Assembly (NCBI GenBank): GCA_963754315.1
Contig: CAVWFS010000019.1
Location: forward strand, 849,640 to 913,639
Origin: an uncultured Candidatus Rokubacteria bacterium
GTDB lineage: Bacteria > Methylomirabilota > Methylomirabilia > Rokubacteriales > CSP1-6
Length of the DNA stretch: 64,000 nt
Direction of reading: 5' to 3'
The notes beneath the pieces were generated by a model that made no database searches, was not told the DNA's origin, and saw nothing but the letters and a program-made list of their open reading frames with translations. This document shows, in pieces, positions 598-41,552 of the stretch. Positions within the stretch are counted from its first letter, which is position 1, and each line of letters starts with the position of its first letter. The position numbers were made by a program, and so were the translations under genes.

Positions 598-602
598 CGG
601 CT

Positions 603-6056: not shown

Positions 6057-6227
6057 AAGGGTCGTCTCCCTGGTGTCTCGACATACCATTGGATCGTGGC
6101 CTCGAAGAAGAAGCCAAACTTCACTGGAACCTTGGGGAATAGCAAACTCCGGGCCAGAGATGCCAGGGACAAGAGCTCATGCAGAAGCACCGGACCGTGC
6201 GGGGTTGCCGAGCGGGGCCCAGGCGGT

Positions 6228-8477: not shown

Positions 8478-9893
8478 GTGACACCGTTGCGGGTGATCGT
8501 TCTGGATGAACATCGCGAGGTGAGTGAGCGCGCGAAGCGCGTCCTGGGACGTTTGGGCGTACGCGTCTCCTTCGCCGGCTCTGTTGCCGAGCTCGATCTG
8601 CTGTTGGCCAAGAGCGTGCCCACGGATGTCCTCATCGCCAACCTTGCCGGGGAGGCCACGGCCTGGGAGCTCGCCGCCCAGCTTCGCTCTGTGCGTTTCC
8701 TCGGCAAGACGCTGATCCTCGTCGAACGGCCCGCCGAGGCTGACATGGTACGCTCGATGCGGGTTCCTCGGAGTGAATGCGTCATCCGCCCCGCTTCCGT
8801 AGGTCTTATCGATGATCTTCTTCAGCAGGTCGCAACGGACTCGCTCGAGCCGGTGTCAGAACGCTCCTTCGAGCCTCATCGCGCCCACGACCATGAAGCC
8901 TTCAACCACATCGAAGCCTTCAACCACATCGTTGGTCGATCGAAACCCATGCGCGAAATCTTCTGGCGCATCGAGAAGGTCGCCAACAGCGACGCCAACG
9001 TGTGCATCTACGGCGAGAGCGGTACGGGGAAGGAGCTCATCGCACGCGCTCTTCACCATGCGAGTGGGCGGCGCGATCGCCCCTTCATCGCTCTCGACTG
9101 CACGACGATCCCGGAGGGGCTGATGGAGAGCCACCTTTTCGGACACGTCAAGGGGGCGTTCACGGGGGCGGTCGACCACCGAGAGGGTGTTTTCTCCCTA
9201 GCCCACAGCGGCACGCTCTTCATGGACGAGCTTTGTGAACTGAGCCTGCCCCTCCAGGCAAAGCTTCTCCGCGTGGTTCAAAGCCGCGAGTTTGTAAAAG
9301 TGGGGGGGACCAAGCCCGTTCAGACCGACATCCGCCTAATCACCGCCACCAACAAGGAGCCGAAACAGGAAGTCGATCACGGCAACTTCAGGGAGGACCT
9401 CTACTATCGGTTGGCGGTAGTCATGATCAAGGTGCCTCCACTGCGGGAACGGAGCCATGATATTCCTCTCCTCGTGGAGCACTTCGTGAGGAAATTTGCC
9501 GCCGCCTACAATCGGCCCATTCGTGCGATCTCGCCAGCGGCCATGCGGCGCCTGGTCGCCTCACCGTGGCCGGGAAACGTCAGGCAGCTCGAGAATCTTC
9601 TCGAGCAGGCGGTGGTGCTGGCCGACGGGGAGACGCTCAATGAGTGCGATCTCTTCACCGAGGACCCGATCGAGGAGACATTAGCCCAGACGTCCTTTGT
9701 CAGTTTGGAGCGGGGGCTTCCTCTTCGCGAAGTCGAGCGACGGTATATCCTCCGAACGCTTCAAACCTGTCAGGACAACCGGACGGAGACAGCTCGTCGT
9801 CTCGGCATTAGCGTCAGGTGCCTTCAGTATAAATTGAAGTCCTACTCACTCGCGGACGGGGCGCCGCTCGTCGACGGTCGACAAGCGCGGTAG
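8478..9893 (+). CDS. sigma-54-dependent transcriptional regulator (bacterial enhancer-binding protein) with degenerate, probably non-phosphorylatable receiver domain
   Basis: AAA+ sigma-54 activation core (IVGRSKPMREIF...GESGTGKELIARALH...ESHLFGHVKGAFTGA...GNFREDLYYRL) and C-terminal Fis-type HTH (TETARRLGISVRCLQYKL). In the N-terminal receiver-like region the phospho-acceptor position reads 'DVLIANLAGE' (Asn where Asp is expected); T/K positions are also non-canonical. GTG start. Internal 6-aa tandem duplication 'HEAFNHIEAFNHI'. Confidence 0.85.
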   Translation: MTPLRVIVLDEHREVSERAKRVLGRLGVRVSFAGSVAELDLLLAKSVPTDVLIANLAGEATAWELAAQLRSVRFLGKTLILVERPAEADMVRSMRVPRSECVIRPASVGLIDDLLQQVATDSLEPVSERSFEPHRAHDHEAFNHIEAFNHIVGRSKPMREIFWRIEKVANSDANVCIYGESGTGKELIARALHHASGRRDRPFIALDCTTIPEGLMESHLFGHVKGAFTGAVDHREGVFSLAHSGTLFMDELCELSLPLQAKLLRVVQSREFVKVGGTKPVQTDIRLITATNKEPKQEVDHGNFREDLYYRLAVVMIKVPPLRERSHDIPLLVEHFVRKFAAAYNRPIRAISPAAMRRLVASPWPGNVRQLENLLEQAVVLADGETLNECDLFTEDPIEETLAQTSFVSLERGLPLREVERRYILRTLQTCQDNRTETARRLGISVRCLQYKLKSYSLADGAPLVDGRQAR

Positions 9894-14111: not shown

Positions 14112-14220
14112 CAGCAGATACCGAATCAAGTGAGCGTCCCTCCACTTGTGTCGTGGACACCAGGGATCGTGTCCCCAGCAGTGGTGCACGAGCGGTGATT
14201 CGCGGAGGGCAGGTGCCCCT

Positions 14221-15109
14221 TCAGTTCAGCACGGCCGACAGCCACACGGACTGATTGTCGCTGAGCGCGTGCAGCCCTTCAAGCTGCATATATTGCCGCT
14301 GCAGCTGCCACTCGTCGTTCGGCTCGAGCAGCGGCCCCCACCAGCCGGATGATCGCCGCCTCGTTGGGGAAAATTCCCACCACGTCCGTCCGCTAGCTTG
14401 CAGCGCTCCAGCGGATTGGTGCGATCGAGCCATGCCTGGGACCAGCGTCAGCCCCCCTTAGGGGGAACTTCTCCCGCAGCTGGCCGCTCACCGCGCCATT
14501 GAGCGATGGCCGCTCCCTGGCTCTCCTGGGCGAACACCGTGTTGATCAAGGCCAGGACCATCTACCGCTGCCCCTTGCCCGCGTGGGCCAGGGCCTTGCG
14601 GATGAAGTGCACCCGACACCGCTGCCAGCTCGCCTTGAGCACCTTGGCCACGGCTGCCCTCAACCCCTCGTGGGCATGGGAAATCACCAGCTTGACGCCA
14701 CGCAACCCCCGCCGGGTCAGGCTGCGCAGGACGCTGGTCCAAAACGGCTCCGCTTCGCTCGGCCCCACCACCAGCCCCAGCACCTCTCGCACCCCGTCGG
14801 TGTTCACCGCCACCGACACGATGCGCCCCGCCTCCCGCACCTTCACGTAGGTCGCATCGATCCACAGGTACGGCCAATCCCGTCCAGGGGTCGGTTCACG
14901 AATGTCCCGACCCGCTCGTCAATCTGACTGCACAGCCGCGAGACTTGACTCTTCGAGATGCCGCTCATCCCCAGCGCGCGGACCACCTCATCCACCGAGC
15001 GCGCGTCGACACCCCCTGGATGTACGCCTCTTGGATCACCAGGCAACTGGTGTCTACCTCGCCCGGGCGGCGGTTGGCTGGACCGACTCAAGCAAGGCGG
15101 GCACATCAC
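14221..15109 (-). mobile_element. degraded IS256-family transposase gene (frameshifts, in-frame stop, N-terminus missing)
   Basis: Track ORFs 14843..15109(-) '...VVRALGMSGISKSQVSRLCSQIDERVGTFVNRPLDG' and 14562..14846(-) 'KVREAGRIVSVAVNTDGVREVLGLVVGPSEAEPFWTSVLRSLTRRGLRGVKLVISHAHEGLRAAVAKVLKASWQRCRVHFIRKAL' match conserved IS256/mutator-type transposase blocks but are in different frames. Further downstream 'MVLALINTVFAQESQGAAIAQW' follows an in-frame TAG. 14221..14433(-) carries 'LLEPNDEWQLQRQYMQLEGLHALSD' (IS256 C-terminus) in yet another frame. Confidence 0.75.
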
Positions 15110-15407
15110 GCTTGTGTATCATGCTCGTCGGCTATCGAGCGGTGCCAACTCTACGGCGAAACGTGAGCCAGTGGCTGGACCAGGCGCCCCGGCTCGTCGC
15201 CGTGCATAGGGCAGTCGATGTTGCCAGTGATCCGCTCACCCCTGACCCTTGACGGCTGACCGCACAGGGTCGATCCTGATGGTCAGTGGGCATGGGGCGC
15301 CATTTCGAAAGAAGCACGCGGTGATTCGAGGCCGTCAGGCTGCGCTCGAGCTTCTCCTGTTCACCCTCGCCATATCTCTGCTGGTAGGAACCGCTCAGGG
15401 GCACACG

Positions 15408-16468
15408 ACTCCGATCGACATTCCGAGTGGGGTCTTCATTGCGCTGGAGCGGCCGGACTGGGGCCGGGGGCCGGCGCGGGAGACGAAGCACTCGACGTAC
15501 GCGCACAACCCGATCGACGGGCGGCTGTACCAGATGGGGGGGACTTTGGGGGGACGGTGGGGGGGTCGTCGTACCGGCAGGACATGTACTCGGTGTCGAT
15601 TGCGGAGCGGTGGGCGAGCCGGAACGACCGGAACGCGGGCTGGCGGCAGGAGTACCCGTACTGTGGGCCGGAGGGAGGGCGGCAGCCGAAGTCGCCGGAC
15701 TATGTCGGGTGGACGTGGGACACCAAGCGGCGGGTGTTCTGGAGCGTGCCGGGCACGTTTGTAATCCCGGCGGCGGTGTGTCCAGGCATCACGGCGAGCT
15801 GGGGGGACGACCCCCCGAAGTATTTGTTCAACCACCTGATGACCTTTGATCCCTTCGAGCCGGACCTGACCCAGCGCTGGCAGGACCGGGGGCGCGACAT
15901 TGGGCCGACGGCCGTGGACACGTGGATGAGCGTGTACGACGCGGGGACCGACAGTCTGATTCGCTTCGGGTGGGACGGGGCGCGCGGGGCGATGGTGAAC
16001 ATCTATGACATTACGGCCGGGCAGTGGACGGCGAAGTTGCTGGGGTTGAACGCGGTGGGGCAGGACATCCGGATCTTTAAGGAGATGCTGGCGGCGGACT
16101 GGGGGCAGCGGGTGATTTATGTGATCGACGGGATTGCGGGGCGGCTGCATCGCTACCGGGTAGATGGGCGGACGATCGAGGACCTGGGGGTGGTGCCGGG
16201 GGGCCCGATCGCCTATGCGGCCAACAATGATGCCTACGCGGTGTGGGACAGCCTGCACCGGGTGCTGTTCTTTTTCCGGATGGACACGAGCATCCTGCAC
16301 GTCTATCACCCGGACACGCAGGAGTGGGAGACGCCACCGCTGGTGACAGATCCGCCGGGGCTGACGCCGCACGTGCGGCACGCGGCGGTGTTCGACCCGT
16401 ACCAGAACGTGCTGGTCCTCCTGGGGACGACGGACACGGCGAACCCCTACATGTACCTGTACCGCTAT
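15408..16468. repeat. IR-B copy 1: ~1.06-kb segment ~97% identical (inverted) to 46406..47470 inside the giant gene
   Basis: Encoded proteins identical over long stretches (e.g. 'DIGPTAVDTWMSVYDAGTDSLIRFGWDGARGAMVNIYDITAGQWTAKLLGLNAVGQDIRIFKEMLAADWGQRVIYVIDGIAGRLHRYRVDGRTIEDLG'). Antisense/alternate-frame track ORFs are also near-identical (16243..16482+ vs 46293..46631-; 15395..16558- vs 45554..47050+), which proves DNA-level identity. Confidence 0.85.
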
Positions 16469-16525
16469 GCGGAAGAAGGTAGGCCGAGCACCCGGCTCTC
16501 CCTCAGTGGAATCCAGTTCCATGCG

Positions 16526-16888
16526 GGCCAGACGTTGAATCTCGGACTGTCCGTCCACAATCCCAACGAGAACTCACCTCTCGAGCTTTACGTCGGCGCC
16601 GTGCTTCCGGACGGGAAGACCCTGGTTCTGTTCTCTGGCCCCGGCGTCCTCGAGCGGACGGGATCGCTGTCCGCACTCGCCTCCCTGTCGCCGATGCAGG
16701 TCGTTCCCCCTGGCTTTCAGCTCGATGCACCGAGCTTTTTCCAGTACACGTTCCCCCCCGCCGGGGTCACTGCGAGCGGTGTCTACCGTGTGTTCTCGGC
16801 GTTGATCCGCCCGGCAAGCCTGGACGACAATGCCGTCGATCCCGACGATATCGTCGCCCTGAGCGTGGTCGAACTGAGTTTCGCGCCG
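16526..16888. repeat. IR-D copy 2 (partner of 12627..12989)
   Basis: See IR-D copy 1. Confidence 0.7.
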
Positions 16889-18168
16889 TGAGCATGCGCT
16901 GCACAATCACCTCAATGAGGTCTACTGCCATCGGGATACGGCCAGCCGTCCTCGTCATCCTCGCGATCGTCTTGCAACCCCTCTCGGTCAGCGCCAAGGA
17001 GATCGGACCCGAAGCGGACTGGTGCCGCGAGGCGAATACCCTGCCAGCCGGCGCTGAGCTCCTGCTACGTCCAGGCGACTACCACGGCCCTTGCACGATT
17101 CGGCGCGGGGAGGGAGGCGCGGGAGGGCCGATCTCCATTCGCGCCAAGGATCCCGACCGGCCCGCCCGCATCGTGTACTCCGGCGGCAGCCACAACGTGC
17201 TGAATATCCGTCGCGACGACGTGACCATCCGCGGTCTCGAATTCGGGCCGACACTACAGGATGTCGACGGCATCCGGATCTACGACGGCAACAGGATTAC
17301 CATCGAGGACTGCCACTTCTCGCAGATGGGTGGTATTGCCGTTGTGGCGAATTATGCCAACGTTCGCGACCTCACCATTCGGCGAAACGCCATCCGGCAT
17401 TCGAAGTCGACGGCGATGTACTTCGGGTGCCATGACGGGATCTCGTGCACCGCCTCCGATCTCGCTATCGAGCACAACTTTATCGACGGCGTTGATACCG
17501 AGCATGGGATCGGCTACGGCATCCAGATCAAACTCAACTCAACGGCAACCATCCGCGACAACGTGATCGTCAACACCAAGGGACCCGGCATCATGGTCTA
17601 CGGAGCGGCCGACCCCTCCCGCGTCAGCCTGGTAGAGAGGAACCTTGTGGCGGGCTCGCGCACCTCGTCGGGTATCGTGGTCGGCGGCGGTCCGGCGGTG
17701 GTTCGCAATAACGTCGCTCTCGCCAACGCCGAAGTCGGGGTCGGGCTTGAGGACTATCGCCGACGGGGACTCCTTCAGGGGATTCTAGTTGCTCACAACA
17801 CGCTGTACGGGAACAGCAAGGGCGCGATCGGCGTGCCCGCCTCCGGTCGCCTCGAAGCCAAAGTGATCAACAACGCGGCGCACGCCAAGGTCGGGACTCG
17901 GTCGTTGCCGGCCGACCGATCGGGTTTGCTCGCCAGGGGCAATGTCGACTGTTCCCTTGCCCCATGCTTCGGCAATCCGGAGGGGATGGACTTCTCGCCT
18001 CATGCCACCTCACCGCTCTTGGGTCGGGGGCGCCCCGAGGCTGACCAGAGGATGCCCGTAGACGACTACTTGGGGCGGCGGCGCGGAGGGTTGCCCACGC
18101 CCGGCGCATTCGACGGCGCGGCGGAGCCCCTTGTCATCGGCATCCAGCCGGGCGAGCGCCCTCGATGA
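16888..18168 (+). CDS. secreted right-handed parallel beta-helix (pectin-lyase-fold) protein, putative polysaccharide lyase/hydrolase (family C)
   Basis: Signal peptide. Repetitive beta-helix rungs ('NVLNIRRDDVTIRGLEF', 'IRIYDGNRITIEDCHF', 'IAVVANYANVRDLTIRRNAI', 'GIQIKLNSTATIRDNVI', 'GIVVGGGPAVVRNNVA'). ~45-50% identical to the C-terminal 380 aa of 44606..49180. Start overlaps stop of upstream gene (translational coupling). Confidence 0.7.
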   Translation: MSMRCTITSMRSTAIGIRPAVLVILAIVLQPLSVSAKEIGPEADWCREANTLPAGAELLLRPGDYHGPCTIRRGEGGAGGPISIRAKDPDRPARIVYSGGSHNVLNIRRDDVTIRGLEFGPTLQDVDGIRIYDGNRITIEDCHFSQMGGIAVVANYANVRDLTIRRNAIRHSKSTAMYFGCHDGISCTASDLAIEHNFIDGVDTEHGIGYGIQIKLNSTATIRDNVIVNTKGPGIMVYGAADPSRVSLVERNLVAGSRTSSGIVVGGGPAVVRNNVALANAEVGVGLEDYRRRGLLQGILVAHNTLYGNSKGAIGVPASGRLEAKVINNAAHAKVGTRSLPADRSGLLARGNVDCSLAPCFGNPEGMDFSPHATSPLLGRGRPEADQRMPVDDYLGRRRGGLPTPGAFDGAAEPLVIGIQPGERPR

Positions 18169-18375
18169 ACTCCCACGATCCACGCGCAAATGTGCTGCTC
18201 GTTTTGGGTCGTTGCTGCAATTTTTGCGGCTACCGACGGCAGAAATGTCTGATTCCCCGACGTTCGTTTCTCACTAATAGCCACTAACGCCTATCCCAAC
18301 CTGCCATCCGTGGAGCAACTCACGTGGCTGCGCCACATGGCTAACAAAATCAAACCCTTTCGTGACAGAACTCAA

Positions 18376-18390
18376 AGTGGCACCTGTCTT
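18376..18390 (+). promoter_or_regulatory. sigma-54 (RpoN) -24/-12 promoter element, TGGCAC-N5-TTGC, immediately upstream of EPS priming transferase gene
   Basis: Read directly: 'aaagTGGCACctgtcTTGCgacta', an exact match to GG-N10-GC spacing and consensus. ~18 bp upstream of GTG start at 18408. Two sigma-54 activators are encoded in the locus. Confidence 0.55.
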
Positions 18391-18407
18391 GCGACTAACC
18401 CACTCTC

Positions 18408-19781
18408 GTGCTCAGAGTATTCGGACACTACTTACCGGCGATCGCAGTCGTCTCAATCCTGGGGGACCTGGTCACCCTGACCGCATCTGTCCTCCTTGCT
18501 TCACAATCCGCGGGATGGATCGGCACGGGGCCGCTCTGGCCTAAGGCCCTTGCCGTGTGCGGTATCACGGTCTTCAGCATCTATGTCACTGATCTCTATC
18601 GAACCGATTCACGTCTGAACAGGCGCGAGCTGGTCGCGCGGCTGGTGGTCGCTCTGCTCGCAAGCGCGCTGGTTATGGCCGCGCTTGGTTTTGCTGTCCC
18701 CGCCCTGCGTTTCAGCCGCTCTGCCTTTGTCCAGATCTTCAGCGCCTTCGCGATCGGCCTTGTTCCCTGGCGAATTGTCTTGCACCGGATCTGTCTGAAT
18801 GGTCGCCTGCACGCGCGCGTCCTCGTGCTCGGGCTCAGCCGCGCGGCCGGGCGACTCGTCGAGCTGCGGACGACCGGCTCGCAACCCTTCGTGATCCTCG
18901 GCTTCCTGGATGACGCTCCCGATGCCCATGACAAGCTGCCCGCGGGGACGGAGCTCCTCGGTAAGCCGCGGGATCTCCTGAATCTCGTCGACGAGCTACG
19001 GCCAGACCTCATCGTCGTCGCTCTCTCCGACATGCGGGGAGCATTGCCGACGAGTGATCTACTCGAATGCCGCCTGCGTGGAATTCGGGTTGAGGAGTGG
19101 CCGACATTTTTTGAGAAGCAGACGGGGAGGGTGCTGGTCACCGATCTCCGACCGAGCTGGCTCATATTCTCCGATGGCTTCGTTTCGATCCAGATCACGC
19201 AGACGTTGAAGAAGGTTCTGGATCTTACCCTCGCCCTCTCCCTTCTCGTCCTCACACTGCCCCTCATGCTGCTGGTGGCAGTCTCCATCAGGCTCGATTC
19301 CAAGGGGCCGATCCTATTCCGCCAGCCCCGGGTCGGTCACAACAGCCGCATCTTCATGATCAACAAGTTCCGTTCGATGCGAGACAACGCCGAACGTGAA
19401 TCGGGGGCCGTGTGGGCTACCGCCGGCGATCCTCGGGTGACCCGAGTCGGTCGCATCATCCGGCGGACGCGGCTCGATGAGCTGCCGCAGCTCTTCAACG
19501 TGCTCCTGGGAGAAATGAGCTTCGTGGGACCCCGCCCAGAGCGGCCCGAATTCGTGCGCACGCTTCACCGACAGATCCCTTTCTACTCAGGCCGGCTTGC
19601 CGTCAAGCCAGGCATCACCGGATGGGCCCAGGTCCGTCATCACTATGCGGCCTCGGTCGAGGATGCGATGGAAAAGCTTCAGTACGACCTCTACTACATC
19701 AAGAACCTGTCCCCCTTCTTGGACATTCTCATCCTCCTCAGCACGATTCAGGTCGTGCTCTTCGCGCGAGGAGCACGCTAA
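18408..19781 (+). CDS. exopolysaccharide biosynthesis polyprenyl glycosylphosphotransferase (bacterial sugar transferase; EpsB/WbaP-like, PEP-CTERM-system associated)
   Basis: Multiple N-terminal TM helices. C-terminal Bac_transf domain '[31 protein letters not shown]...[10 protein letters not shown]'. N-terminus '[10 protein letters not shown]' typical of this family. Confidence 0.85.
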
Positions 19782-19785
19782 GCCG

Positions 19786-22059
19786 ATGGATCAGTGGCGT
19801 CTCGCTCATCGCATCGCCCTCGGGATCCTTCGCCGGCGCAAGACCCTCGCCGTGGTCACCTTCCTCTTGGCTGTGCTGGTGACCTTTCCCGCCGCCTATT
19901 ATCTGTCACATGAACCGCCTCGATACCAGGCGGTGGCCACGATTCTGCTCGAGGTCAAGCCCGATCGCGTCCCCCTCTTTCAGGAACTCTCGCCCATGCG
20001 GCCGCTGTCGGTCCAGATGGCCATCCTCCGCAGCCGGTCGCTCGCCGAGAGCGTCCTCAGCAGCCTGCCTCGAGCGTCGGTCCAAGATTTGACCGACAAC
20101 CTGTACTACGTCGATTACCTCCAGAAGCTCGTGAACCTCTATCATCGGCTGCTCGGAGTGCCACCGGTTACTTCGAGCTCACGCGGGGAGGCGGTGGCGG
20201 AGCTCCAGGGCGGGCGGATGAAGTTCGTTCCCCTCGGTGACGGCCTCGTGTCGGTCTCGGCCATCGCGTCCAAACCGGAGATCGCGGTGGACCTCGCTCA
20301 AACCTACATCGAGGTCCTTCTCGGCCGGACGCGAACGTTCAACATCGACGATGCGCGAGTGTCGCGAGAGTTCCTCGAGCAGCAGGTCGCCGACGTCAAG
20401 AAGAAGCTGCAGGCGAGCGAAGAATCGCTGCGCGTCTTCACCTCCTCCCACGGCGGCATCAAGGTTCCCGAGCAAAGCCAGGCGACGACTACCCAGCTCT
20501 CCCAGGCCGAGACGGCGCTGGCCGAGGTGCAAGCTAACCGGAAAATGATTGAATCCAGGCTAGCCGGGCTCCGCGAGAAGGTTGAGCAGCAGAAGCGGAC
20601 GCCATCCCCGGCCGTCTCGCTTGGCCCGGCCAGCACGCCGACGCCGTCCAGTGCGGCATCGCCTGAAGTGAGGCGATTGCGCGATCAGCTTGAACAGCTC
20701 GAGACGACGCTGCTCGATCTCCGCATGCGATTCACGGACGAGCATCCGCGGGTCAGACCCGTCAAGGACAAGCTCGCTGAGTTACGGAGCCAGCTCGGGA
20801 GTGCTGTCAAAGAGAGCACGATCGTCACGCCCATGGTAGGAGCGGTACCACCCTCGGAGAGGGTCAACTTTTCAGAGCAGCTCGTCGCTCTGGAAACCTC
20901 TCTGCTGGCCATGACCGCGCAGGAGGAGGCTTTACGCAAGCAAGCCGACACCCTGCGCGCCAGCCTCGCGGGATTGTCGCGAAGCGAGCTGGCCTACAGC
21001 CGTCTGGGACGTGAAGTCGACAGCAACCGTAACCTCTACTCTCTTCTCTCGGAAAAGCTCACCGCCGCCCGTATTCGGGAGCAGGGTGAGATGAAGGTCG
21101 TGAAAGTCATTGACCCGCCGGAGCTCGGGGTGAGCGCGAGCAACGACAAGCGCTTTAAGTTCCTGACCCTCGCGGCGGGCCTGGCCCTGCTCGTGGGGGG
21201 CGGGGTGCCCGTGGCCGCCGAGCTTCTCGGCAAGCACATCGAGTCGGAGGATGATGTTCATCAGGCGACCGATTTGCAGGTCATCGCCCTCGTCCCGCAT
21301 CGCCGCTCGGGCCGCCCCGTATTCACGGCAATCGCCGGCCTCGAAAGACCCCGCCAGTCCGAGAACGATATTATATTCAGCGAGGCGTTTCGATCCCTCC
21401 GGGTAGCCGTCCAGCTTGCTATGCGCTCGGACAACGTCCGCAGTCTTCTTATCGCCAGCGCGTCCCCCGGCGACGGCAAGACCACCGTGTTGATCAACCT
21501 CGGACTGGCCTTCAACGAGGGCGGAACGCACGTGGTGCTCGCCGATACCGATTTTCTTCGGCCAACGCTGCACAGCAGTATGCACGTGCCATCCACGGCC
21601 GGATTGGGTGAGGTCTTGCGGGCCGAGCGAACGCTCGATGACTCGCTTTTCCTGGTCGCCGACGGGCTGTGGGTGGCGGCCCCCGCCCACGGTATCGATG
21701 CCAGCGTCCGGGGGAGTCTTGCCACCAGCCGTCTGAAGGCCCTCGTCGGCGAGATGGCGACGAAGGCCGAGCTCGTGATCTGTGATTCGCCGCCGGTCCT
21801 CGCCGCCCCCGAGAGCCTCTTTCTGGGGTCTGCTGTCGACGCCGTCATCTTGGTCGTCAAGGCCGGTCGAACAAGCTTCCGGGACCTGGCCCGCACTAAG
21901 CGGAAGCTCGAAAGCGTCGGCGCCAGAATCCTGGGCGTGGTGATCAACGATTTGCCAGCCGCGACCCTGCGGCGGACGTATCGACGGTATGCCGCCAGCT
22001 ATCAGAAGGATAACGCCATGGTCAGGAAGATCGGCCCTTCGCAACCGCCGCATGAATGA
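19786..22059 (+). CDS. polysaccharide chain-length determinant fused to Wzc-type tyrosine autokinase (PEP-CTERM-locus ChnLen + TyrKin)
   Basis: Wzz-like N-terminal TM + long coiled-coil periplasmic region + second TM. C-terminal P-loop ATPase 'LLIASASPGDGKTTVLINLGLAF...VLADTDFLRPTLH...VICDSPPVLAAPE'. Start at ATG (M64 of track ORF) 4 bp after upstream stop. Confidence 0.85.
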   Translation: MDQWRLAHRIALGILRRRKTLAVVTFLLAVLVTFPAAYYLSHEPPRYQAVATILLEVKPDRVPLFQELSPMRPLSVQMAILRSRSLAESVLSSLPRASVQDLTDNLYYVDYLQKLVNLYHRLLGVPPVTSSSRGEAVAELQGGRMKFVPLGDGLVSVSAIASKPEIAVDLAQTYIEVLLGRTRTFNIDDARVSREFLEQQVADVKKKLQASEESLRVFTSSHGGIKVPEQSQATTTQLSQAETALAEVQANRKMIESRLAGLREKVEQQKRTPSPAVSLGPASTPTPSSAASPEVRRLRDQLEQLETTLLDLRMRFTDEHPRVRPVKDKLAELRSQLGSAVKESTIVTPMVGAVPPSERVNFSEQLVALETSLLAMTAQEEALRKQADTLRASLAGLSRSELAYSRLGREVDSNRNLYSLLSEKLTAARIREQGEMKVVKVIDPPELGVSASNDKRFKFLTLAAGLALLVGGGVPVAAELLGKHIESEDDVHQATDLQVIALVPHRRSGRPVFTAIAGLERPRQSENDIIFSEAFRSLRVAVQLAMRSDNVRSLLIASASPGDGKTTVLINLGLAFNEGGTHVVLADTDFLRPTLHSSMHVPSTAGLGEVLRAERTLDDSLFLVADGLWVAAPAHGIDASVRGSLATSRLKALVGEMATKAELVICDSPPVLAAPESLFLGSAVDAVILVVKAGRTSFRDLARTKRKLESVGARILGVVINDLPAATLRRTYRRYAASYQKDNAMVRKIGPSQPPHE

Positions 22060-22187
22060 CCACTGCCTGGCGACTGTTACCGGTCACCGTGCCATCGCCG
22101 TTAGCCTCAGCGGTCGCGGAGCAGCCGCATCGTCGACGTGCGGAGCATGCTGGGTGGCAACCGTCGTCGCATCGTGACCGTCTAAGC

Positions 22188-23042
22188 ATGCGCAACGCGC
22201 TCACCTTTGACGTCGAGGAGTACTTCCACGTGGAGGCATTCAAGGACATCATCGAGACCGACCGGTGGGCCAGCCTTGAGTCGCGGGTCGTGGCGAGCAC
22301 ACACCGGGTGCTCGATCTCCTCGAGGCGCGCCACGTGTCGGCGACGTTTTTTGTCCTCGGTTGGGTCGCCGACCGGCACCGGGCTCTCGTGCGCGAAATC
22401 CAGTCGCGAGGCCACGAGGTGGCTTGCCACAGCTACGCGCACCAGGTGATCTACACCATGGACCGTGAGGCTTTCCGGGCCGACGTACGCCGGGCGAAGC
22501 AAGCCCTCGAGGACGCGACGGGGGCCACGGTCCTAGGCTATCGGGCGCCCACGTTCTCTGTGGTGGAGCAGACGCTGTGGGCGCTCGAAGTCCTCGCCGA
22601 AGAGGGCTTTCGCTACGACTCGAGCATCTTCCCGATACGTCACGACCGTTATGGAATGTCCCAGGCGCCTCGCTTCCCGCACCGTGTGTCCTTGCCGAGC
22701 GGCGGAAGGATAGTGGAGTTCCCTGTGTCAACTATGAGGGTGGTAGGGCAGAACGTGCCCTTCTCGGGCGGGGGGTACTTTCGGGTAGCACCGTATCCTC
22801 TTGTCCGGGCTGCCTTACGCCATGTCAACCGGCGCGACCGGCTGGCAGCCATGGTCTATCTCCATCCTTGGGAGATGGACCCGGAGCAACCACGCTTTCC
22901 GGTCGGGGCGGTAGCACGCGTACGCCACTACGCCAACCTTGGCCAGACAGCCGCCAAGCTCGACCGCCTGCTTCAGGACTTCTCCTTCGCTCCGGCCTGT
23001 CAGGTGCTCGGCGAGCAGGGCTTCTGGGAGGTCACCGCGTGA
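22188..23042 (+). CDS. polysaccharide deacetylase family protein, PEP-CTERM-locus subfamily (XrtA-associated)
   Basis: N-terminus 'MRNALTFDVEEYFHVEAF...' and overall NodB-like core + C-terminal extension, characteristic of exosortase-locus deacetylases. Start at M45 of track ORF. Confidence 0.8.
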   Translation: MRNALTFDVEEYFHVEAFKDIIETDRWASLESRVVASTHRVLDLLEARHVSATFFVLGWVADRHRALVREIQSRGHEVACHSYAHQVIYTMDREAFRADVRRAKQALEDATGATVLGYRAPTFSVVEQTLWALEVLAEEGFRYDSSIFPIRHDRYGMSQAPRFPHRVSLPSGGRIVEFPVSTMRVVGQNVPFSGGGYFRVAPYPLVRAALRHVNRRDRLAAMVYLHPWEMDPEQPRFPVGAVARVRHYANLGQTAAKLDRLLQDFSFAPACQVLGEQGFWEVTA

Positions 23043-24143: not shown

Positions 24144-25166
24144 ATGGAAATCGTCGAACTTCGGGGGGAGACGCTGGAGTGGGATACTTTCGTGAGAACC
24201 TCCCCCGCTGGCAGTCCGTTTCACCTGGTGCGATGGCGACGCGCGGTCGAGGACGCCTTCGGGCATCGCGCGCATTACCTGATGGCCCGCGACGGTGGCC
24301 GTCTTGAGGGCATTCTTCCCCTCTTCGAGGTCACCGGGCTGCTGGGCGGTCGGGCCTTAATCTCTATCCCGTACGCTGTCTACGGCGGGCTATGCGCCAA
24401 CTCGCCGGCCGCGGGCCGAGAGCTTCTGGAGGCCGCCACCGCCCTCGCCAGGGAGCGCAAAGCCGCCTACATCGAACTGCGCCAGCGGCAGGACCTCGGT
24501 CTCGACCTTCCCACCAAAGCTCTCTACGTCACCTTCGTTCGTCAGATTTCGGACAGCGAGGAGGCCAACTTCCAGATCATTCCTCGCAAGCAGCGGCGAA
24601 TGGTTCGTCAAGGGGCCAAGCACGGGCTGCGCGTGGAAATCAGCCCGGATCACTTTGACGCCTTCTATGACATCTACGCGCGTAGCCTGCACAACCTTGG
24701 CTCACCCGTGTTCCCCCGCGCGCTGCTGCGCGGTGTTCTCGCCCACTTCGATAAGGACTGCGACCTCCTTACCGTCTGGCATGGAAATCGCATGGTTGCG
24801 GGTGTCATGAGCCTCTACTACGAGGACGCAGTGATGCCCTACTACGGGGGCGCGAGGCAGGAGGCGTTCACATACGCCGTCAACGACTTCATGTATTGGG
24901 AGCTGATGTGCCATGCCGCCAGGCGGGGCTGCCGTCTCTTCGACTTCGGCCGAAGCCGCGAGGGGACGGGCCCCTACCACTTCAAGCGACACTGGGGCTT
25001 CGAGCCAGCTCCTCTTCCCTACCAATACGTCATGCTGCGCGAGGGTGCCTTGCCCAACCTCAGCCCGTCTAATCCCAGGTTCCAGCTCGCCACTCGTGTG
25101 TGGAAACGGTTACCCCTCTCGGTCACCAAGGCCGTGGGCCCCCTCCTCGCCCGCCACCTACCATAA
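24144..25166 (+). CDS. FemAB-family protein, PEP-CTERM system-associated (GNAT-fold aminoacyl/peptidyl transferase-like)
   Basis: 340 aa. N-terminus 'MEIVELRGETLEWDTFV...SPFHLVRWRRAVEDAFGHRAHYL' and overall FemAB-like length/organisation as found in exosortase loci. Confidence 0.7.
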   Translation: MEIVELRGETLEWDTFVRTSPAGSPFHLVRWRRAVEDAFGHRAHYLMARDGGRLEGILPLFEVTGLLGGRALISIPYAVYGGLCANSPAAGRELLEAATALARERKAAYIELRQRQDLGLDLPTKALYVTFVRQISDSEEANFQIIPRKQRRMVRQGAKHGLRVEISPDHFDAFYDIYARSLHNLGSPVFPRALLRGVLAHFDKDCDLLTVWHGNRMVAGVMSLYYEDAVMPYYGGARQEAFTYAVNDFMYWELMCHAARRGCRLFDFGRSREGTGPYHFKRHWGFEPAPLPYQYVMLREGALPNLSPSNPRFQLATRVWKRLPLSVTKAVGPLLARHLP

Positions 25167-37523: not shown

Positions 37524-38930
37524 TTGAAGGGGCCGATCTCTTTTGAAGGCTTGACCGTCCTGCTGGCGGCCGTGAGCGGCCTCGCCGTGGGGGGGGTAGC
37601 TCTAAGGCGACATCGATACGGGGGGCTTCCCCGGAGTTTCGGCGCGGGCATGGTTGCTTTTGTCAGCGTCGTCGTTACCAATATTGCCCTGCTTTCCAAG
37701 AACCTTCGCGGGCACATCAGACGCTCTACCGGAAGGTACTTCTCCCGGAGCAAATACGATTATCGGCAACAGTGGACCAACTTCTCGACCCGCCTGCGCT
37801 CGCTGGTAACCATGGAGGAACTCGCTCCGGCGCTTCTATCGGTGGTGACCGATGCGGTGGGAACGGCACAGGGAGCCCTATACCTCGCCGGCGAGCACGA
37901 CGATGTGTATCATCTGGCTGCCTCTCGCGAATTCGACCGACTGCCAGCAGACCTAGGAAAGGGCTCGTTCCTGTTCTCGCGACCGGCCGGGCCGCGGACT
38001 CCATTCCCCATCGAGGCGAATGGCCCAGACTCATGGCTCGACACGGCACCGTTGCCCAGCTCTGAAGTCATCGCCGTCCCCTTGTACTGGAGGAATACGC
38101 TGGTGGGCTGTCTAGTGCTGGGTCCGCCGCGGACCGGTGTCGGGTACGACAAAGAGGATTTTGACTTCTTGGCTACCGTGGGCGAATCGGCCGCTGGAAT
38201 TGTCGTCACCGTGCTCATGGCGGAGCGCTCAGCCCGAGCGCGGGAATTCGAAGCGCTCCATCAGCTGACCTCATGCGTGATTCACGACTTCAAGAACGCA
38301 GTGACCGCGCTCTCCATGCTCAGCGCAAATGCCCGCGATCATTTCGATGATCCCGAATTTCAGCGCGATGCGCTCAGGACCCTGGCGCGGACCGTGGACC
38401 AGATGAGGGGATTGCTCGCCAAACTGTCGCCCTCCCCCGAAGTCAGCCGCATCCGTTTCGAGGCTGTCGATCTCGCCAAGCTCCTGCTGGAAACGGCCAG
38501 TACCGTTCTCGATGGCAAGCCGGTAACGGTGGAGGAGCGCATTCGGCCGATCCCTCTAATTCTCGCCGACCGGGTGGCACTCGGCCGCGTACTCCAGAAC
38601 TTCCTCCTCAATGCTCTCGAGGCGATCGACCACGCCGGGCGGATCACCCTCAGCACCGAGCCTCAGCAGGGTTTGGTCTCCTGCGCGGTGGCGGACGACG
38701 GGTGCGGAATGTCGGCTGAGTTCATCCGCCGGTCCCTCTTCGTGCCTTTCCGTTCTACGAAGAAGGGGGGCTGGGGCATTGGTTTGTACCATGCAAGAGA
38801 GATCGTGGCCGCTCACGGTGGCCGCATCGAGGTGGACAGCCACGAAGGGAGGGGCACAACCTTTCGGCTGCTCTTCCAACCGGCTGCCCCTTCTCGCACC
38901 GCCGATCGCAACAGGACCACCCACCCATGA
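37524..38930 (+). CDS. prsK: sensor histidine kinase, PrsK-like but with a short (2-TM) N-terminal region
   Basis: Two N-terminal TM helices, GAF-like middle region, H-box 'VIHDFKNAVTALSML', HATPase_c 'GGWGIGLYHAREIVAAHGGRIEV...GTTFRL'. Sits immediately upstream of the exosortase and a sigma-54 response regulator. Confidence 0.75.
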   Translation: MKGPISFEGLTVLLAAVSGLAVGGVALRRHRYGGLPRSFGAGMVAFVSVVVTNIALLSKNLRGHIRRSTGRYFSRSKYDYRQQWTNFSTRLRSLVTMEELAPALLSVVTDAVGTAQGALYLAGEHDDVYHLAASREFDRLPADLGKGSFLFSRPAGPRTPFPIEANGPDSWLDTAPLPSSEVIAVPLYWRNTLVGCLVLGPPRTGVGYDKEDFDFLATVGESAAGIVVTVLMAERSARAREFEALHQLTSCVIHDFKNAVTALSMLSANARDHFDDPEFQRDALRTLARTVDQMRGLLAKLSPSPEVSRIRFEAVDLAKLLLETASTVLDGKPVTVEERIRPIPLILADRVALGRVLQNFLLNALEAIDHAGRITLSTEPQQGLVSCAVADDGCGMSAEFIRRSLFVPFRSTKKGGWGIGLYHAREIVAAHGGRIEVDSHEGRGTTFRLLFQPAAPSRTADRNRTTHP

Positions 38931-40205: not shown

Positions 40206-41552
40206 GTGAGTTTGCCCAATGCCTTGATCGTGGAAGACGACGAGGCGATTCGTATTCAGTTGAAGTACGCGCTGCAGGGCGAGTTTCGGCTCACTTTCGC
40301 GGAATCCCGGCCGCAGGCACTCGCAGCCGCAGCCGCAGACCGGCCGGCGGTGGTTCTGCTCGATCTCGGGCTCCCGCCGAATTCCGACACCACCAGTGAA
40401 GGGCTCAAGACGCTCGAAGAGCTGTGTCAGTCGCCGGTCAAGGTCATTGTGCTCACGGGTCACAGCGAGCGCAAGAATGCCCTCGCCGCCGTTCACCTCG
40501 GCGCCTTTGACTACCAGCTGAAGCCCATCGATCTCGATACCCTGCGCGTGATGATGCGTCGCGCCGTCTACCTCTTGGAGCTAGACCACGAAGGCGTACC
40601 CTCCCTCGCCGGCCCGGACACTACCACCGCCCTCGAAGAGCTCCTCGGCACGACTCCCGCGATGCGGGAGATCTTCAGGATCATCCAGCGAGTGGCCAAG
40701 ACGGACGCCACCGTCCTCATTGAGGGTGAAAGCGGGACCGGCAAGGAGCTCATAGCGGCGGCGATCCACCAACGAAGCCCGCGCTGCTCCGCCCCCTTCA
40801 TCGCCGTCAACTGCGGCGCCATTCCCGAGACGCTGGTCGAGTCAGAACTGTTTGGCCACCAGGATGACGGCTTCACTCGCGCTAACGGCCCAAGCAAACT
40901 GGAGCTGGCCGATCACGCCACGCTCTTTTTGGGCGAGATCGGCGAGCTAAGCCTTCTCCTTCAGGTAAAGCTACTGCGCTTTCTCCAGCAGCGCACTATC
41001 GAGCGCAGCAGCCAGGAGGCGATGAAGCTCGATGTGAGGGTCATCGCCGCCACCGACCAGGACCTCAAGACACTCCTGAAGCTGAAGCGGTTTCGTCAAG
41101 ATCTCTACTACCGCCTGTCGATCGTGACCATCCGCGTTCCGCCTCTCCGCGAGCGCGGCGAGGACATCGCCTTTCTCGCCAACGCCTTCCTCCGGCGGAT
41201 CTGTCACCAGCATCGCAGAACGTCGACGTTCAGCCCGGAGGCCGTGAAGGCCATGATGGCCTACTCGTGGCCCGGAAACATCAGAGAGCTCGAGAACAAG
41301 GTCACCCGGTCTCTGATCATGGCGCAGGGGCGGACGATTGGTCCGGTGGAACTGGAACTCACGTCCCAACATGAAGGTCGCCCGGCTCTCCTCCGGCAAG
41401 CACGCCGGCACGCAGAGCGCCAGGCGTTGGTGACCGCTCTCGGTCGCAACCATGGGAACATCAGTCGGGCTGCGCGCGAGCTCGAGGTAAGCCGGCCGAC
41501 CCTCCACAGCCTACTCGACAAACACGCCATCGACGCCAAGACCTTCCGCTAA
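40206..41552 (+). CDS. prsR: sigma-54-dependent response regulator (PEP-CTERM-box response regulator PrsR-like) with canonical receiver
   Basis: REC domain with 'LIVEDDE' and phospho-acceptor 'VVLLDLGLPP', T ('VIVLTGHS') and K ('LKPID'). AAA+ 'GESGTGKELIAAAIH', 'ESELFGH', 'FRQDLYYRL'. C-terminal Fis HTH 'GNISRAARELEVSRPTLHSLL'. GTG start. Confidence 0.85.
   Translation: MSLPNALIVEDDEAIRIQLKYALQGEFRLTFAESRPQALAAAAADRPAVVLLDLGLPPNSDTTSEGLKTLEELCQSPVKVIVLTGHSERKNALAAVHLGAFDYQLKPIDLDTLRVMMRRAVYLLELDHEGVPSLAGPDTTTALEELLGTTPAMREIFRIIQRVAKTDATVLIEGESGTGKELIAAAIHQRSPRCSAPFIAVNCGAIPETLVESELFGHQDDGFTRANGPSKLELADHATLFLGEIGELSLLLQVKLLRFLQQRTIERSSQEAMKLDVRVIAATDQDLKTLLKLKRFRQDLYYRLSIVTIRVPPLRERGEDIAFLANAFLRRICHQHRRTSTFSPEAVKAMMAYSWPGNIRELENKVTRSLIMAQGRTIGPVELELTSQHEGRPALLRQARRHAERQALVTALGRNHGNISRAARELEVSRPTLHSLLDKHAIDAKTFR

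What the first reader, a model, noticed from the sequence alone, without database searches (positions are those of the whole stretch)
18200..18408. Perfect sigma-54 promoter plus upstream palindromes in front of the EPS priming glycosyltransferase
TGGCAC-ctgtc-TTGC (18376-18390) matches the RpoN -24/-12 consensus with exact spacing, ~18 bp before the GTG of the EpsB-type transferase (very short leader). Upstream are two imperfect palindromes: 'GCTGCAAtttTTGCGGC' (~18213-18229) and 'CACGTGGCtgcGCCACATG' (~18327-18345). These are candidate enhancer (UAS) sites for the two sigma-54 activators encoded in the window. This would place the whole EPS operon under PrsK/PrsR-type control.
Basis: seen in the sequence. 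Interest (0 to 1): 0.6.

Follow-up and report, generated by a model that had tools for sequence, protein, structure and literature searches.

The report
Sigma-54 promoter abutting EPS gene start
A conserved sigma-54 promoter with an upstream activator site sits so close to the start codon of the exopolysaccharide priming enzyme that its mRNA should have almost no leader and no ribosome-binding site, which is unusual for this promoter class.

Summary
TGGCAC-ctgtc-TTGC lies at 18378-18392 and is the only exact match in 64 kb (0.15 expected). It sits 15 nt before the GTG (18408) of a TIGR03013 EpsB-type priming glycosyltransferase in an XrtA/PEP-CTERM EPS locus.

All ten distinct relatives fetched (56-69% protein identity, uncultivated bacteria) carry a GG-N10-GC core 14-18 nt before the same start codon. 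None has a Shine-Dalgarno sequence.

- **Palindrome 1** (18214-18230) is the local copy of a conserved enhancer-like site, CGCAA-N3-TTGCG. It occurs in 10 of 11 sequences, 133-157 bp upstream of the GG.
- **Palindrome 2** (18322-18340) is not conserved and is no better than chance.
- **An IHF-like site** (18348-18360) lies between the enhancer-like site and the core.

The likely activator is the GAFTGA-bearing regulator at 8478-9893, which is syntenic in relatives. The window's PrsR-like protein is less likely, because its sigma-54 contact loop reads DGFTRA with a 5-residue deletion.

The unexpected feature is a predicted 2-8 nt leader, implying near-leaderless, SD-independent translation from a sigma-54 promoter. 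I rate it a new variant of a known kind. No transcription start site or rpoN data were available.

The parts
18185..18197 (.). Weak extra enhancer-like half-site, CGCAAatgTGCTG. The left half is perfect and the right half degenerate. Its centre is about 31 bp upstream of the centre of the conserved site.
   Evidence: 3 mismatches to CGCAA-N3-TTGCG. Sequence read. There is no orthologous counterpart in the alignments, so this part is tentative.
18216..18228 (.). Conserved distal enhancer-like site (UAS), TGCAAtttTTGCG. The consensus in relatives is CGCAA-N3-TTGCG.
   Evidence: invariant or near-invariant columns at GCA and TGCG; present with 1 mismatch or fewer in 10 of 11 sequences, 133-157 bp upstream of the GG. 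Across the 11 upstream regions there are 16 sites with 2 mismatches or fewer, against 1.27 expected from shuffles.
18246..18261 (.). Partly conserved block TGTCTGATT..GAC of unknown role. It lies between the distal enhancer site and the position where relatives carry a second, proximal copy.
   Evidence: Alignments. It is unexplained.
18322..18340 (.). It is not conserved and may be lineage-specific or chance. It lies just downstream of the stretch where most relatives have the proximal TTTTTGCGCG site, which the window lacks.
   Evidence: the region is variable. P=0.21 by chance; hairpin z-score is -2.35 here, but the mean over 11 sequences is only -0.75.
18348..18360 (+). IHF-like bending site, AATCAAacccTTT. 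It matches WATCAA-N4-TTR at 12 of 13 positions and is preceded by an A-rich stretch. It starts 31 bp upstream of the GG.
   Evidence: 1 mismatch, P=0.018 against shuffles. Seven of 11 sequences have 2 mismatches or fewer; six of these start 27-31 bp upstream of the GG and one (L075) 37 bp. A and C are conserved. That IHF actually binds is inferred.
18378..18392 (+). Sigma-54 core promoter, TGGCAC-ctgtc-TTGC, with -24 GG at 18379-80 and -12 GC at 18391-92.
   Evidence: the only exact match in the window. GG and TTGC are invariant in 11 sequences.
18402..18408 (+). Predicted transcription start zone. If C18392 is at -12, then +1 is about 18404. The leader would be about 4 nt, within a 0-6 nt range, C-rich and without a Shine-Dalgarno sequence.
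   Evidence: Inferred from the standard -24/-12 geometry, which is established knowledge. Searches give a conserved spacing of 14-18 nt from the -12 C to the start codon. The start site has not been mapped.
18408..19781 (+). epsB2, a TIGR03013 XrtA/PEP-CTERM-system priming glycosyltransferase (457 aa, GTG start).
   Evidence: 472 bits against a cutoff of 393; most homologues listed are 455-458 aa and 100% covered, and P0001 is identical; the N-terminal MLRVFGHY is shared with distant homologues that do have an SD.
8478..9893 (+). Candidate cognate activator ('EBP1'). It has an AAA+ sigma-54 interaction domain with an intact GAFTGA and a Fis-type HTH. Its N-terminal 145 residues are uncharacterised.
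   Evidence: no Pfam match for the N-terminus; the order EBP-export-OMP-epsB2 is kept in relatives; the HTH is nearly invariant. That it binds the enhancer site is inferred.
40206..41552 (+). PrsR-like response regulator with a degenerate sigma-54 contact loop (DGFTRA plus a 5-residue deletion). It is an unlikely activator of this promoter.
   Evidence: 491.1 bits, just under the TIGR02915 cutoff of 502.6..
37524..38930 (+). PrsK-like histidine kinase ORF that lacks the N-terminal membrane part of the family model.
   Evidence: matches profile positions 235-677 of 679, scoring 285.9 against a cutoff of 300. GAF, HisKA and HATPase domains.

Best explanation
The spacer 18169-18407 is a complete enhancer-dependent sigma-54 promoter for epsB2, and probably for the co-directional EPS genes behind it.

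Proposed mechanism:
1. A Fis-type activator binds the conserved palindrome CGCAA-N3-TTGCG (window 18216-18228). This is most likely the GAFTGA-bearing protein encoded at 8478-9893.
2. An IHF-like bend at 18348-18360 brings the activator to sigma-54 RNA polymerase, which sits at TGGCAC-N5-TTGC (18378-18392).
3. The -12 element lies only 15 nt from the GTG. Transcription therefore starts about 0-6 nt before the start codon.
4. The resulting mRNA has no Shine-Dalgarno sequence, so it must be translated in a leaderless or short-leader, SD-independent way.

What is shown: the sequence elements, their conservation and their spacing.

What is inferred: sigma-54 dependence, the start site, IHF binding, which activator acts, and the mode of translation.
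For: Locus context:
- The window is an XrtA/PEP-CTERM EPS locus. It encodes PrsT, an export protein, EpsB2, a chain-length/Tyr-kinase protein, a deacetylase, FemAB, amidotransferases, an exosortase and PrsK/PrsR-like proteins.

Core promoter:
- It is an exact core match and the only one in 64 kb.
- All ten distinct relatives at 56-69% EpsB2 identity have a GG-N10-GC core with TTGC invariant. The -12 C is 14-18 nt from the start codon.
- GG, TTGC and the start codon are invariant columns in the alignments, while the flanking sequence is only about 48% identical.

Start codon and translation:
- None of the 11 short leaders contains GGAG, GAGG or AGGA at a usable distance. Other genes in the window do have SD-like sequences.
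- An in-frame TAA at 18396-98 fixes the start codon.
- Homologue lengths are mostly 455-458 aa.
- Distant homologues begin with the same MLRVFGHY N-terminus but do carry an SD, for example L001.

Upstream elements:
- The distal enhancer site is conserved in 10 of 11 sequences: 16 sites against 1.27 expected.
- An IHF-like site recurs at a similar position, starting 27-31 bp upstream of the GG in six sequences and 37 bp in one.

Activator:
- EBP1 has GAFTGA, is syntenic in relatives and has a nearly invariant HTH.

Alternatives looked for and not found:
- No sigma-70-like promoter or terminator in 17900-18700, and no Rfam family in 18000-18600.

Precedent:
- Sigma-54/PrsR control of PEP-CTERM genes was predicted by Haft et al. 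2006 (PMC1569441) and supported experimentally in Aquincola (PMC9850573).
Against: - There are no start-site, expression or binding data.
- rpoN could not be looked for, because only this window and short flanks of relatives are readable.
- More distant homologues (52% identity and below: L076, L077, L001, L041 and the 40-48% Acidobacteriota-type loci) lack the element. It is therefore a clade-specific arrangement.
- The window lacks the proximal second enhancer copy that most relatives have.
- The enhancer site is not significant within the window alone.
- Five of the 11 start codons are GTG. In E. coli GTG works poorly for leaderless translation (cited in PMC3616915).
- The predicted leaders of 2-8 nt are mostly not strictly zero.
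- The choice of EBP1 over PrsR rests on synteny and the GAFTGA argument only. Both proteins have conserved HTHs.
Confidence: 0.72

Rival explanations
1. The same sigma-54 promoter is driven by the locus's PrsK/PrsR two-component system, with the palindromes acting as PrsR sites. This would put the EPS operon in the PEP-CTERM regulon described for Proteobacteria.
For: - PrsK-, PrsR- and PrsT-like genes are in the window.
- PrsR relatives in this clade carry GAFTGA, GSFTGA or GAYTGA.
- The PrsR HTH and the receiver Asp are conserved in the window's copy.
- There is precedent in PMC1569441 and PMC9850573.
- The window has lost both the proximal enhancer copy and PrsR's GAFTGA. That could be correlated decay.
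Against: - The window's PrsR has DGFTRA and a 5-residue deletion in the sigma-54 contact loop. Yet the core promoter here is a perfect consensus.
- PrsR scores under the TIGR02915 cutoff and PrsK is N-terminally truncated.
- The TTTACA-containing motif 1 of the proteobacterial box is absent from all 11 upstream regions on the expected strand.
- The downstream gene is a glycosyltransferase, not a PEP-CTERM protein gene, and no PEP-CTERM tail was found in any ORF of the window.
Confidence: 0.2
2. The sigma-54 site is bound but is not the productive promoter. epsB2 would be transcribed from further upstream, by read-through from the beta-helix gene or from an unrecognised promoter. It would then be translated without an SD from a long mRNA, with the closed sigma-54 complex acting as a roadblock or fine-tuner.
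For: - No terminator-like site follows the upstream gene.
- All upstream genes in relatives are co-directional.
- Stable, non-productive sigma-54 binding is established knowledge.
Against: - A conserved enhancer site and an IHF-like site at canonical distances argue for activation.
- The narrow 14-18 nt spacing to the start codon is preserved, while upstream distances vary by more than 20 bp.
- No sigma-70-like promoter was found.
- An SD-less internal start on a long mRNA would be poorly translated in an organism whose other genes show SDs.
Confidence: 0.06
3. A chance match to the sigma-54 consensus with no function.
For: - 13 of 100 shuffles of the window contain an exact match.
- One-mismatch matches are at chance level.
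Against: - The element is retained at the same position in ten independent relatives, with GG and TTGC invariant, in otherwise poorly conserved non-coding DNA.
- Its orientation and intergenic placement fit a locus that encodes sigma-54 activators.
Confidence: 0.02

Closest known systems
PEP-CTERM box: the sigma-54 promoter plus PrsR enhancer motif upstream of PEP-CTERM protein genes in Proteobacteria (Haft et al. 2006, PMC1569441; Aquincola pepA, PMC9850573)
   Same: - It involves the same kind of locus (XrtA/exosortase EPS system with PrsK/PrsR/PrsT-type genes).
- It has the same promoter class (-24 GG / -12 GC).
- It has an upstream activator site, sometimes repeated.
   Different: - The controlled gene here is the priming glycosyltransferase, not a PEP-CTERM protein gene.
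- The enhancer motif is CGCAA-N3-TTGCG rather than a 17-nt motif ending in TTTACA.
- The organisms are not Proteobacteria. Haft et al. found the box only there.
- The distance from promoter to start codon is 14-18 nt. Haft et al. report a mean of 71 nt and a minimum of 23 nt, measured from the end of their motif 2.
- The likely activator is a different EBP.
Classical enhancer-dependent sigma-54 promoters with an IHF bend (e.g. nifH, Pu, glnHp2; established knowledge)
   Same: The architecture is the same: a palindromic upstream activator site roughly 100-180 bp upstream, an IHF-type site between it and the core, a TGGCAC-N5-TTGC core, and a GAFTGA-bearing AAA+ activator encoded nearby.
   Different: Those promoters give leaders of tens to hundreds of nucleotides with an SD. 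Here the start codon lies at about +3 to +9 and no SD exists.
Leaderless genes whose promoter -10 box abuts the ORF (Deinococcus-Thermus, PMC12340547; actinobacteria; 192 exact leaderless start sites in Bradyrhizobium, PMC4842269)
   Same: The promoter element lies immediately next to the start codon, there is no SD, and the 5' end would be at or within a few nt of the start codon.
   Different: The cases described in those papers involve sigma-70-type -10 elements. Four full-text searches pairing 'leaderless' with sigma-54, sigma54 or RpoN, and the four hit papers I opened, gave no description of a sigma-54-driven leaderless mRNA. Here the abutting element is the sigma-54 -12 box.

Membership tests
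Sigma-54 (-24/-12) dependent promoter | GG and GC dinucleotides exactly 10 bp apart within TGGCAC-N5-TTGC | tested here: met
   a 10/10 core match at 18378-18392. GG and TTGC are invariant in 11 sequences.
Sigma-54 (-24/-12) dependent promoter | Intergenic, in the same orientation as the downstream gene and upstream of it | tested here: met
   it lies in the 239-nt spacer between 18168 and 18408, on the + strand like epsB2.
Sigma-54 (-24/-12) dependent promoter | The genome encodes an AAA+ enhancer-binding protein with an intact GAFTGA loop | tested here: met
   the protein at 8478-9893 has GAFTGA at residue 226 plus Sigma54_activat and HTH_8 domains.
Sigma-54 (-24/-12) dependent promoter | The genome encodes rpoN | not testable with these tools
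   Only the 64-kb window is readable. The source contig (925,744 bp) could not be fetched.
Sigma-54 (-24/-12) dependent promoter | Upstream activator site about 80-200 bp upstream | tested here: met
   CGCAA-N3-TTGCG is conserved 133-157 bp upstream of the GG in 10 of 11 sequences. Its binding protein is not identified.
Sigma-54 (-24/-12) dependent promoter | Transcription start about 12 nt downstream of the GC, dependent on rpoN and the activator | not testable with these tools
   No transcript data are available.
PEP-CTERM box / PrsR regulon (Haft 2006) | A 17-nt motif 1 ending in TTTACA, 32-92 nt upstream of the sigma-54 motif | tested here: not met
   no TTTACA in 240 nt upstream of the core in any of the 11 sequences. 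There is one reverse-strand TGTAAA, in L163. The full logo was not available, so only the published hexamer was tested.
PEP-CTERM box / PrsR regulon (Haft 2006) | The downstream gene encodes a PEP-CTERM protein | tested here: not met
   the downstream gene is the TIGR03013 glycosyltransferase; no credible PEP-CTERM tail in any ORF of the window.
PEP-CTERM box / PrsR regulon (Haft 2006) | A functional PrsR (TIGR02915) able to contact sigma-54 | tested here: not met
   491.1 bits, under the 502.6 cutoff. DGFTRA plus a 5-residue deletion in place of GAFTGA. Loss of function is inferred from the known role of the loop and was not measured.
Leaderless / short-leader mRNA | No Shine-Dalgarno sequence before the start codon | tested here: met
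   the 14-18 nt between the -12 C and the start codon are C-rich, with no usable GGAG, GAGG or AGGA in any of the 11 sequences.
Leaderless / short-leader mRNA | 5' end within about 0-5 nt of the start codon | not testable with these tools
   This is inferred from promoter geometry. The predicted leader is about 4 nt here and 2-8 nt in relatives. It needs start-site mapping.
Leaderless / short-leader mRNA | The start codon is correctly assigned | tested here: met
   an in-frame TAA lies 3 codons upstream; homologues have the same length; the conserved N-terminus MLRVFGHY is shared with SD-led homologues; a codon-like conservation pattern begins at the start codon.

The most novel reading that the evidence does not exclude
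Placing the sigma-54 -12 box against an SD-less start codon may act as a two-level lock.
- Only transcripts initiated at this enhancer-dependent promoter would carry the start codon at their 5' end, so only they could be translated by a leaderless-type route.
- Read-through transcripts from the co-directional upstream genes would be translationally silent for the committed, lipid-carrier-consuming first step of EPS synthesis.

This would be a sigma-54-specific form of leaderless gene expression. It appears conserved across a clade of uncultivated soil and groundwater bacteria whose MAGs are labelled Rokubacteria, Binatia or Tectomicrobia. In the full-text searches run here (four term pairings, four hit papers opened) I found no such case described.
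Probability: 0.3. Interest if true: 0.7.

Novelty: new variant of a known kind. Interest (0 to 1): 0.5.

Why it matters
- **Transcription-translation coupling.** Sigma-54 promoters are textbook examples of tightly gated transcription, and they are normally followed by ordinary SD-containing leaders. A conserved case where the -12 box abuts the start codon would link enhancer-dependent transcription to leaderless-type translation. It would be a simple, testable design in which transcriptional origin decides translatability.
- **Reach of sigma-54 control.** Haft et al. (PMC1569441) found the PEP-CTERM sigma-54 box only in Proteobacteria. This finding places sigma-54 control in front of the priming transferase of exosortase-type EPS loci in other bacteria, with a different enhancer motif and probably a different activator.
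- **Annotation.** It explains a recurrent error. Some orthologues are called 6-9 residues too long, and at least one (P0099) begins at the TTG of the -12 element.
- **What is ordinary.** Finding a sigma-54 promoter in a PrsK/PrsR-type EPS locus is expected in itself.

Tried and rejected
- **Fetching the source contig.** Exact look-ups of the window's EpsB2 found no contig on record, so rpoN and the organism's identity could not be checked. Cluster look-up gave no taxon names either.
- **Genome scan of GTDB representatives and metagenome scan.** These mostly returned distant Acidobacteriota-type homologues at 40-48% identity. None has a sigma-54 element before the gene. Only L074 and L075 were useful. 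The informative relatives came from look-ups of individual homologous proteins.
- **First enhancer model, GCGCA-N5-TGCGC.** It was not enriched in the window: 77 hits against 83 expected at two mismatches. A perfect palindrome at 37165-37179 lies inside a methyltransferase ORF, so I dropped it. I replaced the model with CGCAA-N3-TTGCG.
- **Conserved hairpin at the palindrome 2 position.** Each relative has a different palindrome there. Fold z-scores average only -0.75 and are mixed in sign, so I rejected this as a robust feature.
- **Known RNA element, sigma-70 promoter or terminator in the spacer.** None was found.
- **PEP-CTERM protein genes in the window.** I looked for them to compare promoters. 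None was found.
- **Receiver domain in EBP1's N-terminus.** There was no Pfam hit even at E<=10.
- **Literature.** Four full-text searches pairing 'leaderless' with sigma-54, sigma54 or RpoN, and the four hit papers opened, gave no described sigma-54-driven leaderless mRNA. Absence from this library is not proof of absence.
Full report
**1. What is in the sequence**

The -24 GG is at 18379-80 and the -12 GC at 18391-92.

The GTG that opens the long ORF 18408-19781 follows 15 nt after the C of the GC. An in-frame TAA at 18396-98 excludes any upstream start. The intervening gactaacccactctc contains no Shine-Dalgarno sequence.

The two palindromes are GCTGCAAtttTTGCGGC at 18214-18230 and CACGTGGCtgcGCCACATG at 18322-18340.

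How far each exceeds chance:
- The exact core pattern occurs once in the 64-kb window, against 0.15 expected.
- One-mismatch versions are at chance level: 4 found, 4.2 expected.
- Palindrome 2 is within chance for this spacer (P=0.21).
- The core of palindrome 1 is not enriched in the window: 3 found, 2.75 expected.

From the window alone, then, only the core is suggestive.

**2. Context**

The window is a classical XrtA/PEP-CTERM exopolysaccharide locus:

| Coordinates | Strand | Product |
|---|---|---|
| 2868-6089 | - | PrsT |
| 8478-9893 | + | sigma-54 activator ('EBP1') |
| 9922-10791 | + | export protein |
| 10769-12586 | + | outer-membrane protein |
| 18408-19781 | + | EpsB2 (TIGR03013; 472 bits, cutoff 393) |
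| 19597-22059 | + | chain-length/Tyr-kinase protein (longest ORF; the true start is probably near 19800) |
| 22056-23042 | + | deacetylase |
| 24144-25166 | + | FemAB-type protein |
| 37524-38930 | + | PrsK-like kinase |
| 38927-39859 | + | exosortase |
| 40206-41552 | + | PrsR-like regulator |

Amidotransferases and glycosyltransferases fill the stretch between the FemAB-type gene and the PrsK-like gene.

The source organism is uncultivated. The closest annotated relatives of EpsB2 are labelled Rokubacteria, Binatia, Tectomicrobia or Planctomycetes MAGs.

**3. Comparative evidence**

Distant EpsB2 homologues (52% identity and below) have no sigma-54 element in front of the gene. These include the 40-48% Acidobacteriota and Methylomirabilota loci. 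Some of them, such as L001, follow another gene directly and have a GGAG before the same MLRVFGHY N-terminus.

The ten distinct relatives at 56-69% identity are different. They are L074, L075, L154 and L159-L165. Every one has a GG-N10-GC core with TTGC invariant: T/C/G/A-GG-C/T-A/C-C/T, then N5, then TTGC. The -12 C lies 14, 14, 14, 14, 15, 15, 16, 17, 17 or 18 nt from the start codon. None has an SD.

In the alignments, GG, TTGC and the start codon are invariant, while mean column identity is about 48%. Downstream of the start codon the conservation shows a codon-like pattern.

The start codon is secure. Most homologues listed are 455-458 aa long and cover the whole query. Longer calls of 463-466 aa are over-extensions. 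In L165 the called TTG start is the TTG of the -12 element itself.

**4. Upstream elements**

- **Distal enhancer site.** The alignments reveal a palindrome with consensus CGCAA-N3-TTGCG. It is present with one mismatch or fewer in 10 of 11 sequences, centred 133-157 bp upstream of the GG. Over the 11 regions there are 16 sites with two mismatches or fewer, against 1.27 expected from shuffles. That palindrome is therefore real and orthologous.
- **Proximal copy.** Most relatives carry a second copy (TTTTTGCGCG-type) about 61-65 bp downstream of the first. The window and L161 do not. The window instead has a weak half-site 31 bp upstream, at 18185-18197.
- **Palindrome 2.** It falls in a variable stretch. 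Other relatives have unrelated palindromes nearby, but hairpin z-scores are mixed, with a mean of -0.75. I treat it as unsupported.
- **IHF-like site.** Between the enhancer region and the core, an A-rich stretch followed by a WATCAA-N4-TTR-like sequence recurs. Seven of 11 sequences have two mismatches or fewer; six of these start 27-31 bp upstream of the GG and one 37 bp. The window's copy, AATCAAacccTTT at 18348-18360, has one mismatch (P=0.018). This is the usual place for an IHF bend in sigma-54 promoters, which is established knowledge. Actual binding is inferred.
- **Other features.** No sigma-70-like promoter, terminator or Rfam family is present.

**5. Which activator?**

The case against the window's PrsR-like protein:
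- Its relatives carry GAFTGA (92 of the 120 proteins listed), or else GSFTGA or GAYTGA. This protein and its 88%-identical relative read QDDGFTRANGP, with a five-residue deletion.
- That loop contacts sigma-54 in characterised activators, which is established knowledge. This protein is therefore an unlikely activator here.
- Its receiver Asp and its HTH are nevertheless conserved.
- It scores just under the TIGR02915 cutoff, and the PrsK-like ORF matches only profile positions 235-677.

The case for EBP1:
- It has an intact GAFTGA.
- It lies in the conserved order EBP-export-OMP-epsB2 in every relative whose flank reaches far enough.
- Its HTH is nearly invariant.

[quoted passage not shown] It is not present here. 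The window also encodes no PEP-CTERM protein.

I therefore favour EBP1, but only on this indirect evidence.

**6. Mechanism**

Standard geometry puts the C of the GC at -12. That places +1 near 18404, giving a leader of about 4 nt. In relatives the equivalent range is 2-8 nt.

Upstream distances vary by more than 20 bp among relatives, yet the spacing from the -12 box to the start codon stays within a 5-nt band. This suggests selection to keep the start codon at the 5' end.

Other genes in the window do show SD-like sequences. The absence of an SD is therefore specific to this gene and not a general trait of the organism.

The best reading is a sigma-54, enhancer- and bend-dependent promoter that produces a near-leaderless mRNA.

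One consequence is speculative. Read-through transcripts from the co-directional upstream genes would carry an SD-less internal start and be poorly translated. Expression of the priming transferase would then be locked at two levels.

**7. Comparison with what is known, and novelty**

A sigma-54 promoter in a PrsK/PrsR-type EPS locus is expected (PMC1569441, PMC9850573). The enhancer-bend-core architecture is textbook. The new points are:
- the target gene;
- the enhancer motif;
- the non-proteobacterial clade;
- the probable use of a different activator;
- above all, the conserved abutment of the -12 box to an SD-less start codon.

Full-text searches pairing 'leaderless' with sigma-54, sigma54 or RpoN, and the four hit papers I opened, gave no description of a sigma-54-driven leaderless mRNA. 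The promoter-adjacent ORFs described in those papers involve sigma-70-type -10 boxes (PMC12340547, PMC4842269). I class this as a new variant of a known kind.

**8. Limits**

- There are no start-site, expression or binding data.
- rpoN and ihf could not be searched for.
- The operon's extent is unknown. The genes are co-directional and terminators do not exceed chance, but gaps reach 1.1 kb.
- Five of the 11 start codons are GTG, which is unfavourable for leaderless initiation in E. coli but tolerated in some other phyla.

Noticed in passing
window 40206-41552 (+): In the PrsR-like response regulator the sigma-54 contact loop reads DGFTRA with a 5-residue deletion. One 88%-identical relative shares this. 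Most other relatives listed carry GAFTGA, GSFTGA or GAYTGA. The receiver Asp and the HTH are conserved. It may be a DNA-binding protein that can no longer activate sigma-54.
   Followed up: partly
window 37524-38930 (+): The PrsK-like histidine kinase ORF matches only positions 235-677 of the 679-position TIGR02916 model (285.9 bits, cutoff 300). The N-terminal membrane sensor part seems to be missing. A methyltransferase ORF (36524-37501) lies directly upstream.
   Followed up: no
window 6156-6142 (-) and 6287-6232 (-): There is a second sigma-54-like core, TGGCCC-ggagt-TTGC, 53 nt before the prsT ATG (6089). About 75 nt upstream of it lie three tandem 18/19-nt repeats, GGGCAYCGC(C)GCCGCCAAA. 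This may be a separate enhancer with a different motif.
   Followed up: partly
window 8478-9893 (+), residues 1-145: The N-terminal regulatory region of the GAFTGA-bearing activator has no Pfam match even at E<=10. By eye it resembles a degenerate receiver. The signal that controls it is unknown.
   Followed up: partly
window 12624-18168: About 5.5 kb lies between the outer-membrane protein gene and epsB2, where relatives have a single gene. It holds a Kelch-repeat gene on the minus strand, two ORFs without family matches, and a beta-helix/NosD-like gene. It looks like an insertion that left the promoter intact.
   Followed up: no
L165 3001-3019 (protein P0099): The public gene call for P0099 starts 6 codons too early, at the TTG of the -12 TTGC element. 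This is a start-codon over-extension caused by the missing SD. Other 463-466-aa calls (e.g. P0007, P0023) may be the same kind of over-extension but were not examined.
   Followed up: partly
window 18246-18261: The block TGTCTGATT..GAC is partly conserved across relatives, between the two enhancer positions. Its role is unknown.
   Followed up: no
L165 about 2703-2689 (- strand): One relative has a divergent sigma-54-like core, TGGCAG-gacaa-TTGC, 64 nt before a 265-aa gene of unknown function. It shares the same intergenic region, and possibly the same enhancer sites, with epsB2.
   Followed up: no
window 492-2114 (+): The hopanoid C-3 methylase HpnR is present (859 bits, cutoff 650). It is a marker of 3-methylhopanoid producers and is unrelated to the finding.
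   Followed up: no
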